This document shows positions 1-4,182 of a DNA stretch of 4,457 nt, piece after piece (position 1 is the stretch's first letter; the number at the start of each line of letters is the position of its first letter). Source of the DNA: a virus (taxonomy: Duplodnaviria > Heunggongvirae > Uroviricota > Caudoviricetes); IMG/VR virus record IMGVR_UViG_3300030444_000070. One strand, 5' to 3'. The notes under the pieces are model-generated. The model had not been told where the DNA came from, made no database searches, and was given only the letters and a program-made list of their open reading frames with translations. Both the position numbers and the translations under genes were made by a program.

Positions 1-117
1 TACAAAACGCAATTGAAGAACGCGAGGCATCGTCTTAACGAGGCACCGAGGCGTCGCATTCTTCAGATGGTTCAACCCTTAAGTTAGCGCTTATGGGAAC
101 ACTCCCCGCCAGGTCTC

Positions 118-273
118 TTACCTTTCAGATTCGTAGGCTGTGAAGACAGTGACCTCCGTCTGGCCGGTTCGGATTCGTACCTCGCAGAGGTCTTTCCTCG
201 TTACCAGTGCCGTCACAATGACGGTTAAACAGATGACGATCAGAGCGATTAACATCGCTTTTTGCTGCTTCAT
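118..273 (-). CDS. hok: Hok/Gef-family type I toxin, 51 aa (MKQQKAMLIALIVICLTVIVTALVTRKDLCEVRIRTGQTEVTVFTAYESER)
   Basis: Own translation of the minus strand: ATG at 273..271, TAA at 120..118. The ORF is below the six-frame track size cutoff. SD-like CAAGGAGAAG lies 6 nt upstream of the ATG, as in R1 hok. The protein has the Hok/Gef hallmarks: single N-terminal TM helix, LVTRKDLCE motif, C-terminal FTAYE. It most resembles Gef/HokC and RelF/HokD from memory; the exact paralog is not assigned. Confidence 0.85.
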   Translation of the reverse strand: MKQQKAMLIALIVICLTVIVTALVTRKDLCEVRIRTGQTEVTVFTAYESER

Positions 274-331
274 AGCCTGCTTCTCCTTGACCTTTTGGTC
301 GGTAAGAGGCTAATCTACGTATGCTAAGCAT
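125..331 (-). CDS. mok: Mok-like overlapping reading frame (modulator of killing), 68 aa, coupling hok translation
   Basis: ORF-track frame 125..331 overlaps hok in a different frame and ends 7 nt before the hok stop, as mok does in hok/sok loci. GAGG lies 9 nt upstream of its ATG. The protein itself is low-complexity, which is typical for Mok. Confidence 0.5.
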   Translation of the reverse strand: MLSIRRLASYRPKGQGEAGYEAAKSDVNRSDRHLFNRHCDGTGNEERPLRGTNPNRPDGGHCLHSLRI

Positions 332-385
332 AGATATGGCCTCAGATTAATGTTAAGCGTCTTGCAGGACGCGTAATGTTATCTG
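321..385 (+). ncRNA. sok: Predicted Sok-like antisense RNA covering the mok translation initiation region
   Basis: Plus-strand promoter candidate TTGACC (287..292), 16-nt spacer, GCTAAT (309..314) inside the mok 5' end puts the start near 321. The transcript would be antisense to the mok SD and start codon. A GC hairpin GCGTC-TTGCAG-GACGC (357..372) followed by a U-rich tract gives a ~64-nt RNA. Boundaries are approximate. Confidence 0.35.
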
Positions 386-440
386 GGGCTTTCTTCTATC
401 TGCTTTTCGGGTCATGCCTGAAGCAGATAGCCTCAAGCAC

Positions 441-480
441 CCGCAACGATTGTATCAATGTCTGGCTTTTTTTCTATAGA
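441..480 (-). promoter_or_regulatory. Predicted hok mRNA promoter (extended -10 TGaTACAAT) and transcript start
   Basis: Minus strand reads CATTGATACAAT (rc of 449..460) with a TG extension. About 7 nt downstream the transcript would begin GGTGCTTGAGGCTATCTGC, which closely resembles the 5' end of R1 hok mRNA (GGCGCTTGAGGCTTTCTGCC, recalled from memory). A 10-bp inverted repeat CTATCTGCTT / AAGCAGATAG (396..405 and 421..430) would form a 5' leader hairpin. Confidence 0.35.
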
Positions 481-700
481 AATCACCTGGAAGGGTGAAT
501 ATCCACATCAGAAGAAATGTTGCAGCAAACATGATCCCTAATGGCCAGACCGCGCCAAAGAAAATCCATACTAAGATCTCCTCTGCTCGTTCTTTGCGGT
601 CGATATCGACAAGCATTTTTCGGCTGATCATGTATACACAGAAGCCAATACAAACATATCCTGCAAAAGCGATCGCTAACTGTAAAAAATCAGATTGCAT
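455..700 (-). CDS. Small membrane protein of unknown function, 81 aa, two predicted TM segments
   Basis: Track ORF 455..781. I prefer the internal ATG at 700..698 because GAGG lies 6 nt upstream; the 781 start has no SD and would overlap the repL stop. Two hydrophobic stretches (FLQLAIAFAGYVCIGFCVYMI and ILVWIFFGAVWPLGIMFAATFLLMWIF) are separated by a charged loop, and the C-terminus is basic. No family recognised. Confidence 0.5.
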   Translation of the reverse strand: MQSDFLQLAIAFAGYVCIGFCVYMISRKMLVDIDRKERAEEILVWIFFGAVWPLGIMFAATFLLMWIFTLPGDFYRKKARH

Positions 701-750
701 CTCCGACCTCAAACTGAAAACGCCAGGTGACTCCAGATTAGAGCAATCTA

Positions 751-1596
751 TCACCCCCTGAATCCTGCCGGTATACCCCATTTTTCGTTATCTTTATTTT
801 TGGCTAAAACCGCATTAAGAGCTTCGTTTACCGTCATGCAATGCGGTAGATTATCGAAGTTTGATATCCCGCCAATATCAGGCGAACGCTTGTTCTTCAG
901 GTAAGCATATTTCCGCGCAGCCGCCTCTACTTTCTGCTTGAACTCATGTTTTTGAGCGCGTTTTTTGGATAACCGCAGATTGTCAGCCTTTGCTTTTGCC
1001 TCAGCGATCCATGAAGTCAATTTTTTGAGTCTGGTCGTTCCGGCACCGCCGGAAACTGATCTTTTTGTTTTTTTAACTTGTGACTTCTTATTCTTTATTG
1101 CCACGTCATCCTGACAGGGGGAGGGGGTATCATTTTGACATGGGGGTGTGGATAAAAAATCAAATAAAGCCAATGTCTTAGCGAGAACAGCTTTAACCTT
1201 GGTTGCGGCTGAAGAGATCTTTAATTTGCTTTCAATCAGCGCGTTTTTAGCGTGTTGTGCGAAGGCCAAAAAGGATGGTGTAAACCGGTACAGGTTAGCG
1301 CGGCGTTCACGGTGATCGCCGATAACAATCTCTACCGACAGGATTCCTTTGTTTACAGCTTCACGGAATGCGCGAACGACGGTTGATTGGCTATAACCAG
1401 TTTCTGCCGCGATCATGCGGTGAGGCTTGTGAATGAAGTATTCACTGGTTGTTGCCGCGAGATTTGCACATTGCGACAGGATATGCCCGGCGCTACGGGA
1501 TAGACCGGAGTGTGTTACAAAGCAGGCCAATTCATAGCCAGAAAAAGTAAAATCGCTCATCGTTATACAGCTCAGGAAAGTGACTTTAGCCAGCAT
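751..1596 (-). CDS. repL: RepL-like lytic replication initiator, 281 aa, winged-HTH (RMIAAETGYSQSTVVRAFREAVNKGIL), lysine-rich C-terminal half
   Basis: Long ORF immediately downstream of kilA with a 29-bp gap. The order (operator, kilA, repL) and the size (281 aa, matching my recollection of P1 RepL) fit the P1 lytic replicon. HTH motif seen directly in the translation. The start could instead be the second Met at 1560; neither has a strong SD. Confidence 0.8.
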   Translation of the reverse strand: MLAKVTFLSCITMSDFTFSGYELACFVTHSGLSRSAGHILSQCANLAATTSEYFIHKPHRMIAAETGYSQSTVVRAFREAVNKGILSVEIVIGDHRERRANLYRFTPSFLAFAQHAKNALIESKLKISSAATKVKAVLAKTLALFDFLSTPPCQNDTPSPCQDDVAIKNKKSQVKKTKRSVSGGAGTTRLKKLTSWIAEAKAKADNLRLSKKRAQKHEFKQKVEAAARKYAYLKNKRSPDIGGISNFDNLPHCMTVNEALNAVLAKNKDNEKWGIPAGFRG

Positions 1597-2554: not shown

Positions 2555-2592
2555 AAACCTGCCAGTTTGCTGGCAGGTTTTTTCTTTTGTTA
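2555..2592 (+). terminator. Rho-independent terminator: stem CCTGCCAG / CTGGCAGG, loop TTTG, then TTTTTTCTTTTGT
   Basis: Perfect 8-bp stem (extendable by AAA/TTT pairs) with the T-tract on the plus strand. On the minus strand it is preceded by an A-tract and followed by GTTTCTGAG, so it may also act weakly after ant. The T-tract overlaps the ant stop codon. Confidence 0.6.
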
Positions 2593-3384
2593 ACCTATTG
2601 CTACTGGTTTTAACAAACCAGCATCAAGTAGCTTGCGAGTTAACCACTGCTGGCCTTTACCCGTTAATTGGGGCGTCAGCCGTATCTGGTAGCCATTTTC
2701 ATCATCCAGCACCACTTCTTTCACCGTGAAATACCCGGCGTTAATGTACTGCTGGCGCGGTACGTTTTTGCGCGCACCAAAAGCCATGAGAATGCCGTTC
2801 TGGCGCAACCATGAGAAAAGGGCGTTTTGCTTAAGTCCAACGACCTTTGCAAAGTTCCCGATCAGGATTCCATTAGCCGCTGATACCCGGTCGGCAAAAT
2901 CGACTTTAGGGGCTGCGGCCACCAGCTGTTGTTCCAACTGCATTTTCTGTTCTGCCAACTCGGCAGCCAGGCGTAGAGCGTCTGGTAATGTTTGGGGGAT
3001 CGATGGGGCAGGGGAGTTTGCCTGCTGCAATTCTTCCAGTTTGTCGATCAGCGAACGGCGGACTGCTTTTGACTCGCGCGCGGCGACTCGCAGGGCTTGT
3101 TTGTAGGTCATGGTTATGACAACCATAGGCGTACCGCCACCTGGCGGCACGGTTGCACTTTTTGTGTAACCGTCCTCACCTTCTAATTCGTCGAGTATTT
3201 TTTTGATGAATTTGTTGTTCCGAACCTCTGGTTCCCCACATAACTTACGCGCTTCATTGACCATCTTTAACAGCGTCTGGCTGTCGATTGTGTCTCCAGT
3301 GTTGGAGATAACATTCACAGCTGGTGATGGCGTAGCTGAAGCAACAGATGCTGGTTTTTTAACATTCAAATTATTACTGGTCAT
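2590..3384 (-). CDS. ant2: Antirepressor Ant2, 264 aa: in-frame internal initiation product of the same ORF
   Basis: In-frame ATG at 3384..3382 is preceded by a strong SD, AAGGAGG, with an 8-nt spacer. P1 ant is known to produce Ant1 and Ant2 from two in-frame starts (recalled). Whether both are used here is an inference. Confidence 0.45.
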   Translation of the reverse strand: MTSNNLNVKKPASVASATPSPAVNVISNTGDTIDSQTLLKMVNEARKLCGEPEVRNNKFIKKILDELEGEDGYTKSATVPPGGGTPMVVITMTYKQALRVAARESKAVRRSLIDKLEELQQANSPAPSIPQTLPDALRLAAELAEQKMQLEQQLVAAAPKVDFADRVSAANGILIGNFAKVVGLKQNALFSWLRQNGILMAFGARKNVPRQQYINAGYFTVKEVVLDDENGYQIRLTPQLTGKGQQWLTRKLLDAGLLKPVAIG

Positions 3385-3633
3385 TCTATGTGCCTCCTTT
3401 CTCATTTCTGCTGCCACCGTTGCGTAACGTAGACGTCCTTGTTCAATCAAATAATCCCTGATCTCGGCTATCAGTAGCCTGTTGATCACAGCCTTATCTG
3501 TTCGGGTATAAAAACGTCTGGTTATCATGAAATAGTTGGCAATTGCGCCGGGGATCTCCCGTGTCGGCATACAGGCAGTATGCAGGGCGATCGCTTCGGC
3601 TATGTCATTACGGGTGACGAGAGGTTTTTTCAT
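2590..3633 (-). CDS. ant1: Antirepressor Ant1, 347 aa, with C-terminal KilAC/ANT domain
   Basis: Track ORF. The ATG at 3633 overlaps the stop of the upstream icd-like ORF as ATGA, and AGGGGG lies 4 nt upstream. The C-terminal ~130 aa (LPDALRLAAELAEQK...GKGQQWL) are paralogous to the KilA C-terminus. The middle region loosely resembles Rha-like regulators. Confidence 0.8.
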   Translation of the reverse strand: MKKPLVTRNDIAEAIALHTACMPTREIPGAIANYFMITRRFYTRTDKAVINRLLIAEIRDYLIEQGRLRYATVAAEMRKEAHRMTSNNLNVKKPASVASATPSPAVNVISNTGDTIDSQTLLKMVNEARKLCGEPEVRNNKFIKKILDELEGEDGYTKSATVPPGGGTPMVVITMTYKQALRVAARESKAVRRSLIDKLEELQQANSPAPSIPQTLPDALRLAAELAEQKMQLEQQLVAAAPKVDFADRVSAANGILIGNFAKVVGLKQNALFSWLRQNGILMAFGARKNVPRQQYINAGYFTVKEVVLDDENGYQIRLTPQLTGKGQQWLTRKLLDAGLLKPVAIG

Positions 3634-3851: not shown

Positions 3852-3907
3852 AGTTACGGCCTCACAATCAGGTTTAACAACCTGCTACCCGCTGCTAAAC
3901 AGGTGGC

Positions 3908-3990
3908 AGGACGTGACGGGGTTAGCAGACTGGCGATTGTGAAACCAGCAGGCCGAAGCCTCCCCATCACGCCCCACCATAATTTGGGCG
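3908..3990 (-). ncRNA. c4: Predicted c4-like antisense repressor RNA
   Basis: On the minus strand, UCACAAUC (rc of 3935..3942) and CUGCUAAC (rc of 3922..3929) lie 6 nt apart. Each is complementary to two target pairs on the same transcript: upstream GUUUAGCAG (rc 4061..4069) and GAUUGUG (rc 4047..4053), and downstream GUUUAGCAG (rc 3892..3900) and GAUUGUGA (rc 3862..3869), the last overlapping the icd SD GUGAGG. Local hairpins place the first motif in a loop. The RNA ends are not determinable from sequence; boundaries are approximate. Confidence 0.35.
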
Positions 3991-4098
3991 TAACGCGGTT
4001 TTACGGACACAAAAATACCGCAATATCGGATATCTGCGGCTGTCCGCACAATCATTCAGGCTGCTAAACCCGGTCGCAGAATTTGCTACGACGGCGAA

Positions 4099-4127
4099 AC
4101 TATAAGCCTGAACGATTAAAAGGTCAA
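4099..4127 (-). promoter_or_regulatory. Sigma70 promoter for the c4-icd-ant operon (P51-like): TTGACC, 17 nt, TATAGT
   Basis: Minus strand: -35 TTGACC (rc of 4122..4127), exact 17-nt spacer, -10 TATAGT (rc of 4099..4104). Predicted start near 4092, upstream of both upstream target motifs. Confidence 0.5.
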
Positions 4128-4165: not shown

Positions 4166-4182
4166 AAATTTATTAGAGCAGA
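4166..4182 (-). promoter_or_regulatory. C1-type repressor operator (Op51-like) upstream of the immunity-I operon promoter
   Basis: Minus-strand 17-mer TCTGCTCTAATAAATTT matches the recalled P1 C1 operator consensus at 15/17. It is nearly identical to the 2496..2512 copy, and the flanks are also conserved (~27/33 over 2483..2515 versus 4153..4185). Confidence 0.5.

What the first reader, a model, noticed from the sequence alone, without database searches (positions are those of the whole stretch)
455..781. Unrecognised small two-TM membrane protein between repL and hok
An 81-108 aa protein with two hydrophobic helices and a basic tail, with an SD-supported start. I recognise no family. Small membrane proteins in prophage accessory slots are often superinfection-exclusion, abortive-infection or toxin-like effectors. 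The hok promoter is embedded in its 3' end, so the two may be functionally linked.
Basis: inference. Interest (0 to 1): 0.5.

Follow-up and report, generated by a model that had tools for sequence, protein, structure and literature searches.

The report
Orphan small membrane gene beside hok
This is a real but dispensable gene for an 81-residue, two-helix membrane protein of unknown function, found only in P1-like phage-plasmids; the promoter of the neighbouring hok toxin gene lies in its last codons.

Summary
The ORF exists as described. The window is a P1-like phage-plasmid. On the minus strand it reads ant1, kilA, repL, this ORF, hok/mok/sok, then an IS421 end.

**Gene and protein**
- The best gene model is 455-700 (81 aa, GAGG 6 nt before the ATG). 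The 108-aa form is less likely.
- It matches only PHROG 3772, which has no known function.
- A profile search of 1.84 billion proteins found no relatives outside P1-like elements.
- Two diverged alleles keep the same length and layout: hydrophobic helix, charged loop, near-invariant second helix, basic tail.
- The second helix carries only synonymous changes. The N-terminal half evolves about neutrally.

**Distribution**
- The locus occurs in 524 of 5,426 complete E. coli genomes.
- About 40% of those carriers have lost the N-terminal half, either to a TnpB-only IS605-family element or to a matching 137-bp deletion. The gene is therefore dispensable.

**Relation to hok**
- A consensus hok promoter overlaps the ORF's end, with the -35 inside it and the stop codon supplying the TG of an extended -10.
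- The two genes also occur separately.

**Function**
Function is untested. My best guess, at low confidence, is an accessory inner-membrane effector co-transcribed with the C1-repressed kilA-repL operon. Superinfection exclusion or host-membrane modulation is the likeliest class. Overall an ordinary finding of modest interest.

The parts
455..700 (-). Best gene model: 81-aa protein plus stop codon (457-455). Sequence MQSDFLQLAIAFAGYVCIGFCVYMISRKMLVDIDRKERAEEILVWIFFGAVWPLGIMFAATFLLMWIFTLPGDFYRKKARH.
   Evidence: ORF list. PHROG 3772 at E 6e-54, full length 1-81/81. Intact in 64 of 66 full-length copies. RefSeq annotates it as hypothetical protein WP_001426344.1 in p1540-3.
701..781 (-). Upstream in-frame extension that gives the 108-aa reading. 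Probably not translated.
   Evidence: No Shine-Dalgarno sequence before ATG 781. It overlaps the repL 3' end (751-1596). It is absent from the PHROG profile and from allele B.
707..710 (-). Shine-Dalgarno GAGG, 6 nt upstream of ATG 700.
   Evidence: Read directly from the sequence.
626..688 (-). Hydrophobic helix 1 (about residues 5-25). This is the variable half of the protein.
   Evidence: Hydropathy peak 2.1. 4 synonymous against 15 non-synonymous changes in codons 1-45. Allele B is about 27% identical here but significantly alignable: Smith-Waterman score 43 against 19.5 +/- 3.6, 0 of 5000 shuffles.
572..625 (-). Charged loop, residues 26-43 (SRKMLVDIDRKERAEEIL).
   Evidence: Charge map. 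Helix break at residues 34-38 in the AlphaFold2 model.
491..571 (-). Hydrophobic helix 2 (about residues 44-70), holding the invariant core WPLGIMFAATFLLMWIFT.
   Evidence: Hydropathy peak 2.2. Codons 52-69 show 4 synonymous and 0 non-synonymous changes, p=0.002. The stretch WPLG...GDFYR is identical in allele B.
458..490 (-). Basic C-terminal tail, PGDFYRKKARH.
   Evidence: Allele B has RNRVKR, the same length and also basic, with the stop codon at the same place, although the DNA has clearly diverged (many mismatches in the alignments).
449..476 (-). Consensus hok promoter: -35 TAGAAA (476-471) inside the ORF, and extended -10 TGaTACAAT (457-449) whose TG comes from the ORF's stop codon.
   Evidence: Promoter scans. 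The Rfam hok-leader model starts at 442. Lambdoid hok loci have a different -35 with a -10 at the same position.
731..747 (-). Remnant of the P1 C1 operator Orlf/Op55: ATTGCTCTAATCTGGAG. The left 11 nt are kept. The joint with P1-type sequence is at 737.
   Evidence: Compared with the P1 annotation and sequence. P1 homology ends at 737.
268..442 (-). hok mRNA leader / sok region, downstream neighbour of the ORF.
   Evidence: Rfam RF01794, 113.9 bits, E 2.6e-26.
118..273 (-). hok toxin CDS (51 aa). mok overlaps it at 125-331.
   Evidence: Pfam HOK_GEF at 2.4e-22. ORF list.
751..1596 (-). repL, the upstream neighbour and probable co-transcribed gene.
   Evidence: 97.5-98.1% identical to repL of P1 and P7. 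No convincing terminator on the minus strand between kilA and the ORF.

Best explanation
Positions 455-700 (minus strand) encode a genuine 81-residue inner-membrane protein built as a helical hairpin. It has a variable first helix, a charged loop, a near-invariant aromatic-rich second helix and a short basic tail.

The gene is an orphan, confined to P1-like phage-plasmids of Escherichia and Salmonella. It sits in the accessory slot downstream of the lytic replicon, where P1 itself carries rlfA-rlfB.

**Inferred expression.** No promoter of its own and no convincing terminator separate it from repL. It is therefore most likely the last cistron of the C1-repressed kilA-repL transcript. That would mean it is made on induction or infection, and that transcription runs on into hok.

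**Inferred function, low confidence.** Through its conserved second helix it acts on a host or phage component in the cytoplasmic membrane, as a dispensable accessory effector. The most probable class is superinfection exclusion or host-membrane modulation during lytic growth. By my own recollection of the literature this resembles what phage T4 Imm does, but there is no homology to it.

**Relation to hok.** The link is physical, through a shared promoter region, and not obligatory.

**Confidence by part.** Gene reality and membrane location about 0.9. Co-transcription with repL about 0.6. Exclusion or modulation function about 0.3.
For: **Real gene**
- ORF intact in 64 of 66 full-length type A copies and in 9 of 9 type B copies.
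- PHROG 3772 full-length match at 6e-54.
- GAGG Shine-Dalgarno at the right spacing.
- The two alleles have diverged N-halves that still align significantly (0 of 5000 shuffles) and share length, hydropathy and a basic tail.
- Excess of synonymous change over the whole ORF (pN/pS 0.45, p=0.026), concentrated in the C-half (8:6, p=0.004) and the helix-2 core (4:0, p=0.002). Controls: kilA 0.11, repL 0.25, hok 0.32, mok 0.82.

**Membrane hairpin**
- Hydropathy and the AlphaFold2 two-helix model.

**Accessory and dispensable**
- Absent from P1 and P7, whose homology stops at 737.
- The slot is a known variable region (PMC9603915, PMC6906374). The P1 occupants are non-essential (PMC10695390).
- Of 524 E. 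coli genomes with the locus, only 309 keep the full region. 115 have an IS605-family junction. PGAP calls the deletion form a pseudogene.
- Isolated phages 673R5 (frameshift) and RCS47 (IS) lack an intact copy.

**Co-transcription**
- Promoter and terminator scans of 400-2600 find no minus-strand promoter between the kilA upstream region and the ORF, and only two 5-bp stems as terminator candidates.
- A C1 operator with one mismatch lies upstream of kilA at 2496-2512.

**Conflict context**
- The neighbours are hok/sok here and an Ail/Lom outer-membrane protein in allele B loci.
Against: - No experiment and no homology to any protein of known function, so the functional class rests on architecture, position and base rates only.
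- No hit to defence models (PADLOC), to Pfam or NCBIfam above cut-off, or to known folds.
- An exclusion function that protects a lysogen would need expression in lysogeny, whereas the inferred transcript is C1-repressed.
- The N-terminal half shows no purifying selection within type A (4:15).
- About 40% of carriers have lost the N-terminal half, which also fits a gene in decay.
- In allele B a terminator-like hairpin precedes the gene, so co-transcription there is doubtful.
- Topology is ambiguous. Both the loop and the tail carry 4-5 Lys/Arg.
Confidence: 0.35

Rival explanations
1. Membrane toxin or lysis helper. The protein damages or permeabilises the inner membrane. Together with kilA upstream and hok downstream it forms a host-killing block that switches on when C1 repression is lifted.
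For: - Small hydrophobic protein with a basic C-terminus, an architecture shared with class II holins and membrane toxins.
- It lies between two host-killing genes, kilA and hok.
- Transcription probably reads through into hok.
- The gene is often inactivated in nature.
Against: - No match to Hok/Gef, to holin PHROGs or to any toxin family.
- It is not in a lysis cassette.
- No cognate antitoxin or antisense RNA was seen: no plus-strand promoter inside the ORF and no Rfam hit there.
- Independent frameshifts (2 of 66) are no commoner than in kilA (2 of 82) or repL (7 of 76).
- Most of the losses trace to one IS event.
Confidence: 0.2
2. A real gene in decay. It once had a function, but in the common (type A) lineage it is now effectively neutral cargo. 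Only its 3' part is kept, because that part carries the hok promoter and serves as a substrate for recombination.
For: - The N-half evolves neutrally (4 synonymous to 15 non-synonymous).
- About 40% of E. coli carriers lack the N-half and start codon.
- PGAP marks the deleted form as a pseudogene.
- Several single-contig frameshift variants exist in the protein database.
- Every disruption found spares the last 115 nt or so.
Against: - 309 of 524 carriers keep the full region, and 64 of 66 sampled copies are intact.
- The helix-2 core tolerates only synonymous change. A promoter or DNA constraint would not produce that pattern.
- Allele B keeps the ORF intact in loci where hok and its -10 are gone.
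Confidence: 0.2
3. Replication-linked membrane factor. The protein tethers or modulates the RepL/oriL lytic replication machinery at the membrane. In that case it is a positional successor to P1's 'replication-linked functions' rlfA and rlfB.
For: It lies immediately downstream of repL, is probably on the same transcript, and occupies the rlfA/rlfB slot.
Against: - No similarity to rlfA or rlfB; P1 homology ends at 737.
- In allele B loci an Ail/Lom gene and a terminator-like hairpin separate it from repL.
- It is lost in many elements whose repL is intact.
- The replication role of rlfA/B is itself only conjecture (the P1 record says 'possibly associated').
Confidence: 0.07
4. Spurious ORF. 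The sequence is conserved as DNA (hok promoter, recombination linker), and the open frame is an accident.
For: - An island of about 80 bp (roughly 474-553) is almost identical between alleles whose flanks on both sides have diverged.
- The hok -35 lies in it.
- The frame test on the SNPs discriminates only weakly. Sense frame 1 gives pN/pS 0.43, similar to frame 0.
Against: - Frame 1 has 5 stops and frame 0 has none.
- Two alleles with very different DNA keep the same open frame, length, hydropathy and stop position.
- The N-halves are significantly homologous as proteins.
- A Shine-Dalgarno sequence is present.
- The island is equally conserved where the hok promoter is destroyed.
- The RNA fold of the island is no better than shuffles (z -0.13).
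Confidence: 0.05

Closest known systems
PHROG 3772 (phage protein family, function unknown) / RefSeq WP_001426344.1 'hypothetical protein'
   Same: Full-length match, 81 of 81 profile positions, E 6e-54. It is the same gene as annotated in p1540-3 and in many P1-like plasmids.
   Different: Nothing differs. This is the family. It carries no functional information.
Phage SJ46 gp017 (83 aa) and E. albertii plasmid homologues ('allele B')
   Same: - Same architecture, and an identical helix-2 stretch WPLG...GDFYR.
- Homologous N-half.
- Same slot, between the lytic replicon and bplB.
   Different: - The N-half is only about 27% identical.
- Most copies have the tail RNRVKR.
- The gene follows an Ail/Lom gene and a terminator-like hairpin instead of repL.
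- No hok CDS is present, only a decayed hok leader.
Phage T4 Imm (superinfection immunity protein; a resemblance recalled from the literature, not tested beyond the family scans)
   Same: As I recall, Imm is about 80 residues with two hydrophobic segments and is made early in lytic growth. It is a membrane-level exclusion factor. That architecture and timing are comparable with what is inferred here.
   Different: - No sequence relationship. No superinfection-immunity family appears among the Pfam or PHROG hits at E<=1.
- The function of the present protein is untested.
Class II (two-helix) holins such as phage 21 S21
   Same: Small size, two hydrophobic helices, charged basic C-terminus.
   Different: - Not in a lysis cassette.
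- An 18-residue charged loop rather than a tight turn.
- No dual-start motif and no holin PHROG or Pfam hit.
Hok/Gef type I toxins (the neighbouring gene)
   Same: Small hydrophobic membrane protein, adjacent to hok and sharing promoter DNA with it.
   Different: - Two helices rather than one, and 81 rather than about 50 residues.
- No HOK_GEF match.
- No mok-like overlapping frame, and no antisense RNA detected.
P1 rlfA-rlfB (occupants of the same slot in P1)
   Same: Same position downstream of repL and of the Orlf/Op55 operator. Non-essential accessory cargo (PMC10695390).
   Different: Unrelated sequences. rlfA is a DUF3800 protein, and PMC3710099 lists it as having an RNase H fold. P1 homology to the window ends at 737.

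Membership tests
PHROG 3772 | Full-length match to the family profile | tested here: met
   E 6.2e-54, 181 bits, positions 1-81 of 81.
Hok/Gef toxin family (PF01848) | Match to the HOK_GEF profile | tested here: not met
   hmmscan at E<=1 lists only B12D (17.3 bits, cut-off 21.5) and PRA1 (13.1 bits, cut-off 30.1) for the ORF. The neighbouring hok scores 78.7 bits.
Hok/Gef toxin family (PF01848) | About 50 aa with a single transmembrane helix, with mok-type translational coupling and a Sok-type antisense RNA | tested here: not met
   - 81 aa with two hydrophobic helices.
- No Rfam hit within 455-737.
- No plus-strand promoter in the ORF.
Holins (class II) | Two transmembrane helices and a charged C-terminal tail | tested here: met
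   Hydropathy and charge map.
Holins (class II) | Location in a lysis cassette next to an endolysin or spanin | tested here: not met
   The neighbours are repL and hok. In relatives the next genes are bplB and pmgG.
Holins (class II) | Sequence match to a holin family | tested here: not met
   No holin family among the Pfam, PHROG or NCBIfam hits at E<=1.
Holins (class II) | Triggers membrane permeabilisation and endolysin release | not testable with these tools
   Needs expression and lysis assays.
Superinfection-exclusion membrane proteins (T4 Imm-like, functional class) | Sequence match to a known exclusion or immunity family | tested here: not met
   None in Pfam, PHROGs, NCBIfam or PADLOC.
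Superinfection-exclusion membrane proteins (T4 Imm-like, functional class) | Small inner-membrane protein | tested here: met
   Two hydrophobic helices, 81 aa.
Superinfection-exclusion membrane proteins (T4 Imm-like, functional class) | Expression reduces infection by incoming phage | not testable with these tools
   Needs plating-efficiency and DNA-entry assays.
Known anti-phage defence systems (PADLOC-DB 2.0) | Match to any defence-protein model | tested here: not met
   0 families for both alleles.
P1 rlfA/rlfB 'replication-linked functions' | Sequence similarity to rlfA or rlfB | tested here: not met
   Megablast similarity to P1 and P7 stops at window 737, just past the repL stop.
P1 rlfA/rlfB 'replication-linked functions' | Position downstream of repL and of the Orlf operator | tested here: met
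   Same slot. The left 11 nt of the operator are kept at 737-747.

The most novel reading that the evidence does not exclude
The protein founds a new, lineage-restricted family of phage-plasmid membrane effectors for exclusion or abortive infection. The near-invariant second helix would be the effector part, and the fast-evolving first helix and loop would set target specificity. It would be made together with the lytic replicon and be transcriptionally wired into hok, so that derepression delivers two membrane-active proteins at once. It would be carried by roughly 6% of complete E. coli genomes.
Probability: 0.2. Interest if true: 0.5.

Novelty: new member of a known kind. Interest (0 to 1): 0.25.

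Why it matters
P1-like phage-plasmids are common in E. coli: this locus occurs in about 10% of complete genomes, and the full-length region in about 6%. They also spread antibiotic-resistance genes. Their variable slots are where exclusion, addiction and defence functions collect.

A small membrane protein this prevalent with no known function is a reasonable candidate for a simple expression and phage-panel screen. The natural knock-outs (IS and deletion forms) provide ready-made comparison strains.

On present evidence, though, it is one more uncharacterised accessory membrane protein. It does not open a long-standing question.

Tried and rejected
**Family and structure searches**
- Pfam gave only sub-threshold hydrophobic noise: B12D 17.3 bits, PRA1 13.1 bits.
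- NCBIfam gave ElxI1 at 14.4-14.6 bits against a cut-off of 45.
- PADLOC gave nothing.
- The PDB sequence profile gave nothing meaningful; the best hit was Lon protease at E 0.64.
- Foldseek of the AlphaFold2 model against viral structures and the PDB gave no match with E<=0.001. The model is low-confidence (pLDDT 69.5) and is a generic hairpin, so this carries little weight.
- A profile HMM search of 1.84 billion representative proteins returned only fragments and variants of the same gene.
- A weak PHROG 4955 hit (E 0.002, function unknown) could not be followed up.

**Other lines tested**
- RNA structure as a reason for the identical island: z -0.13, rejected.
- Rfam: no RNA family inside 455-737.
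- Frame discrimination by SNPs is weak. Sense frame 1 gives similar numbers but has 5 stops.
- Obligate pairing with hok is rejected by the census and by lambdoid hok loci that lack the ORF.
- Literature searches for the protein accessions and the PHROG id found no paper.
- Venturini et al. (PMC6906374) mention the slot in pSvP1 only as '2 orfs including antibacterial toxin'.

**Counting problem**
- My first attempt to count deletion-form genomes by a junction query was confounded, because the tool joins split matches.
- The figure of about 90 is therefore a subtraction: 524 - 309 - 115 - 9.
Full report
**Where the window comes from**

The 4,457-base window is 99.9% identical over positions 1-800 (the part searched) to E. 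coli plasmid p1540-3, a P1-like phage-plasmid. On the minus strand it reads:
- C4 antisense RNA (3899-3984, Rfam, 69.6 bits)
- ant1 (2590-3633)
- kilA (1626-2426; KilA-N and ANT domains)
- repL (751-1596)
- the ORF in question
- the hok/mok/sok locus (hok 118-273, Pfam 2.4e-22; Rfam sok/hok-leader model 268-442, 113.9 bits)
- the right end of an IS4-family element, IS421 (1-97)

These assignments rest. Similarity to P1 and P7 stops at position 737, a few bases beyond the repL stop codon. At that point P1 has the C1 operator Orlf/Op55 followed by rlfA and rlfB. This slot is one of eight highly variable regions of P1-like phage-plasmids (PMC9603915; also PMC6906374). Its P1 occupants are non-essential for plaque formation (PMC10695390).

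An open frame runs from ATG 781 to the stop at 455-457 (108 aa), with an in-frame ATG at 700 (81 aa). I favour the 81-aa start for these reasons:
- GAGG lies 6 nt upstream of it (710-707), whereas ATG 781 has no Shine-Dalgarno sequence and sits inside repL.
- The only family that matches, PHROG 3772 (function unknown), is an 81-position profile. It aligns end to end with residues 28-108 at E 6e-54.
- The second allele of the gene has no equivalent extension.

Hydropathy shows two transmembrane-grade peaks, at residues about 5-25 and about 44-70. Between them is an 18-residue charged loop, and after them a basic tail, RKKARH. AlphaFold2 gives a two-helix hairpin at modest confidence (pLDDT 69.5). 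Topology is ambiguous, because both the loop and the tail carry four to five Lys/Arg.

**It is a real gene, but an orphan**

Pfam, NCBIfam, PADLOC, PDB sequences and Foldseek give nothing above threshold. A word-indexed search of 5.8 billion proteins returned only this gene, its frameshifted or truncated variants and one divergent allele, all from Escherichia or Salmonella P1-like elements. A profile HMM search of 1.84 billion representatives gave the same result. Among one genome per species (185,579 species), only two Escherichia records encode it.

The divergent allele ('B': phage SJ46 gp017, E. albertii plasmids, some IMG/VR contigs) is 83 aa. Its C-terminal stretch WPLG...GDFYR is identical. 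Its N-terminal half is only about 27% identical, but it aligns in register (Y-x2-IG-x3-Y-x2-SR-x2-L). The Smith-Waterman score was reached by none of 5,000 shuffles. Its tail differs (RNRVKR) but is equally basic, and the stop codon is at the same place.

I took 76 IMG/VR loci, 2 genome loci and the annotated records. Of 66 full-length type A copies, 64 are intact, and all 9 type B copies are intact. Polymorphism among 21 type A haplotypes gives 12 synonymous and 21 non-synonymous changes (pN/pS 0.45, p=0.026 for excess synonymous change). The same loci give kilA 0.11, repL 0.25, hok 0.32 and mok 0.82.

The constraint is uneven:
- Codons 1-45 look neutral (4:15).
- Codons 46-81 are constrained (8:6, p=0.004).
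- The helix-2 core, codons 52-69, has four synonymous and no non-synonymous changes (p=0.002).

This pattern, together with an open frame in two alleles with very different DNA, rules out a spurious ORF for practical purposes.

**An identical island**

About 80 bp (roughly 474-553) are almost identical between alleles A and B, while both flanks have diverged. Tails and N-halves also occur in mixed combinations, for example L011 and L082, which have a B-type N-half with an A-type tail. The RNA fold of this stretch is no better than shuffled sequence (z -0.13). The island is equally conserved where the hok promoter has been destroyed. The simplest reading is repeated homologous exchange within the gene between related phage-plasmids, not a separate DNA or RNA element. 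This is an inference.

**Dispensability**

In 5,426 complete E. coli genomes, 524 hold part of 455-737, almost always on plasmids.
- 309 hold at least 80% of that region.
- 115 have a junction where a 1,330-bp TnpB-only IS605-family element replaces window positions about 573-709. Phage RCS47 annotates this element as ISEc46.
- 9 carry allele B.
- About 90 remain by subtraction. These fit a 137-bp deletion with the same end points, which PGAP annotates as a pseudogene, 'membrane domain protein, missing N-terminus'.

The deletion junction (TTTTCAG|TATGG) is exactly what precise excision of the IS would leave, so the two forms probably share one origin. That is an inference. Isolated phages 673R5 (frameshift) and RCS47 (IS) also lack an intact copy. 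The gene is therefore not needed for maintenance of these elements, and probably not for their propagation.

**Relation to hok**

The only consensus promoter on the minus strand near hok is TAGAAA (476-471), 16 nt, TACAAT (454-449). It has a TG two bases upstream that belongs to the ORF's TGA stop. It sits 7 nt before the first position of the Rfam hok-leader model.

Lambdoid phages carry the same hok locus (about 88-93% identical over 102-454). They have their own -35 (TTGGCG or TTGGCA), a -10 at the same place, and no such ORF upstream.

In 78 related loci the two genes separate in both directions:
- 44 have an intact ORF with hok.
- 12 type A and 6 type B have an intact ORF without a hok CDS. 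These keep only a leader remnant from about 305 upward.
- 8 have an intact hok next to a deleted or IS-disrupted ORF, and 1 has an intact hok next to a frameshifted ORF.

The link is a shared piece of DNA, not an obligate functional pair.

**How it most likely works**

What is shown: a small hairpin membrane protein with a constrained second helix, in an accessory slot, and dispensable.

What is inferred about expression: no promoter of its own was found, and only two weak 5-bp stems lie on the minus strand between the kilA upstream region and the ORF's stop. A near-consensus C1 operator lies upstream of kilA (2496-2512). The left 11 nt of the Orlf operator survive at 737-747. The gene is therefore most likely the distal cistron of the C1-repressed kilA-repL transcript. 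It would be made on induction or infection, with transcription continuing into hok. In allele B a terminator-like hairpin after the Ail/Lom gene precedes it, so this wiring may not be general.

What is guessed about function: among small phage membrane proteins outside lysis cassettes, the class best known to me is superinfection exclusion or host-membrane modulation. T4 Imm is an early-lytic precedent with similar size and architecture, recalled from the literature, and it is not a homologue. I give this class about 0.3. The rivals are:
- a membrane toxin or lysis helper acting with kilA and hok (about 0.2)
- a real gene now decaying in the common lineage (about 0.2)
- a replication-linked membrane factor (about 0.07)
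- a spurious ORF (about 0.05)

**Verdict**

The gene is already catalogued as a hypothetical protein and as a PHROG of unknown function, and it is mentioned in passing as an unnamed ORF in pSvP1 (PMC6906374). It is an ordinary uncharacterised accessory membrane protein. Its points of interest are its prevalence, its uneven pattern of constraint, and the hok promoter built into its last codons. Interest 0.25.

Noticed in passing
window 1-117; L009 3742-3760 and 5090-5110: IS421 (called IS186B in PMC6906374) is inserted in the loop of the hok 3' hairpin, GGCGGGGA|TCCCCGCC. This places the fold-back element CCTCAATGCACCC about 1.3 kb away, on the far side of the IS. In uninterrupted relatives that element is complementary to the hok mRNA 5' end, GGGUGCUUGAGG. 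The hok mRNA of this element should therefore lack its 3' inhibitory pairing, and post-segregational killing may be impaired.
   Followed up: partly
L078 1693-3022; L072 about 3000; window about 573-709: A 1,330-bp TnpB-only IS605-family element (annotated ISEc46 in phage RCS47) replaces the N-terminal half of the ORF in 115 complete E. coli genomes. A 137-bp deletion form has exactly the junction expected from precise excision of that element (TTTTCAG|TATGG). This may be a natural example of an IS200/IS605 insertion with an adjacent deletion, followed by excision.
   Followed up: partly
window 305-454; L002, L003, L010, L011: Many P1-like elements, and all allele B loci, keep only the 5' leader of the hok locus (from about 305 up). 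They have no hok CDS, and the break removes the apparent sok -35 (TTGACC, 286-291). In SJ46-type loci the hok -10 and the 5' stem have also decayed. These are hok/sok remnants next to an intact small membrane gene.
   Followed up: partly
window 731-747: The recombination joint with P1-type sequence (737) falls inside the C1 operator Orlf/Op55. The conserved left part, ATTGCTCTAAT, is kept and the right part is replaced (CTGGAG against TATAAC in P1). Allele B loci have an ATTGCTCT or TTTGCTCT motif about 20 nt before their start codon. Whether C1 still binds is unknown.
   Followed up: partly
window about 474-553: An island of about 80 bp inside the ORF is almost identical between alleles whose flanks on both sides have diverged. 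Tails and N-halves occur in mixed combinations (L011, L082, L088). This points to frequent crossovers inside this short gene.
   Followed up: partly
window 455-700: There are four GATC (Dam) sites in 246 bp, about four times the random expectation. Two of them are in the N-half and one is in the conserved island. I saw this by reading the sequence and did not test it statistically against the rest of the element.
   Followed up: no
L003 3460-3975 (KU760857.1, J46_0018): The GenBank record of phage SJ46 labels this gene 'replication protein RepL', but it is an Ail/Lom outer-membrane beta-barrel protein (Pfam OMP_b-brl 2.2e-24, Ail_Lom 1.3e-22). The RefSeq copy has the correct name.
   Followed up: yes
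window 3899-4105, 2496-2512, 4166-4182, 2371-2399: The rest of the window is standard P1 immI and lytic-replicon regulation:
- C4 antisense RNA and its a1/b1 targets (Rfam)
- near-consensus C1 operators upstream of kilA and of c4
- a plus-strand promoter at 2371-2399, matching P1's antisense promoter PaskilA

   Followed up: partly
L002 2454-2969 (+); L003 2337-2969 (+): In the loci without hok, the space between the leader remnant and bplB holds other unknown ORFs on the opposite strand (171 aa in 673R5, 210 aa in SJ46 and E. albertii). Neither has a Pfam match, and the 210-aa SJ46 ORF has no PADLOC match either (the 171-aa ORF was not scanned against PADLOC). They are further uncharacterised cargo of this slot.
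   Followed up: partly
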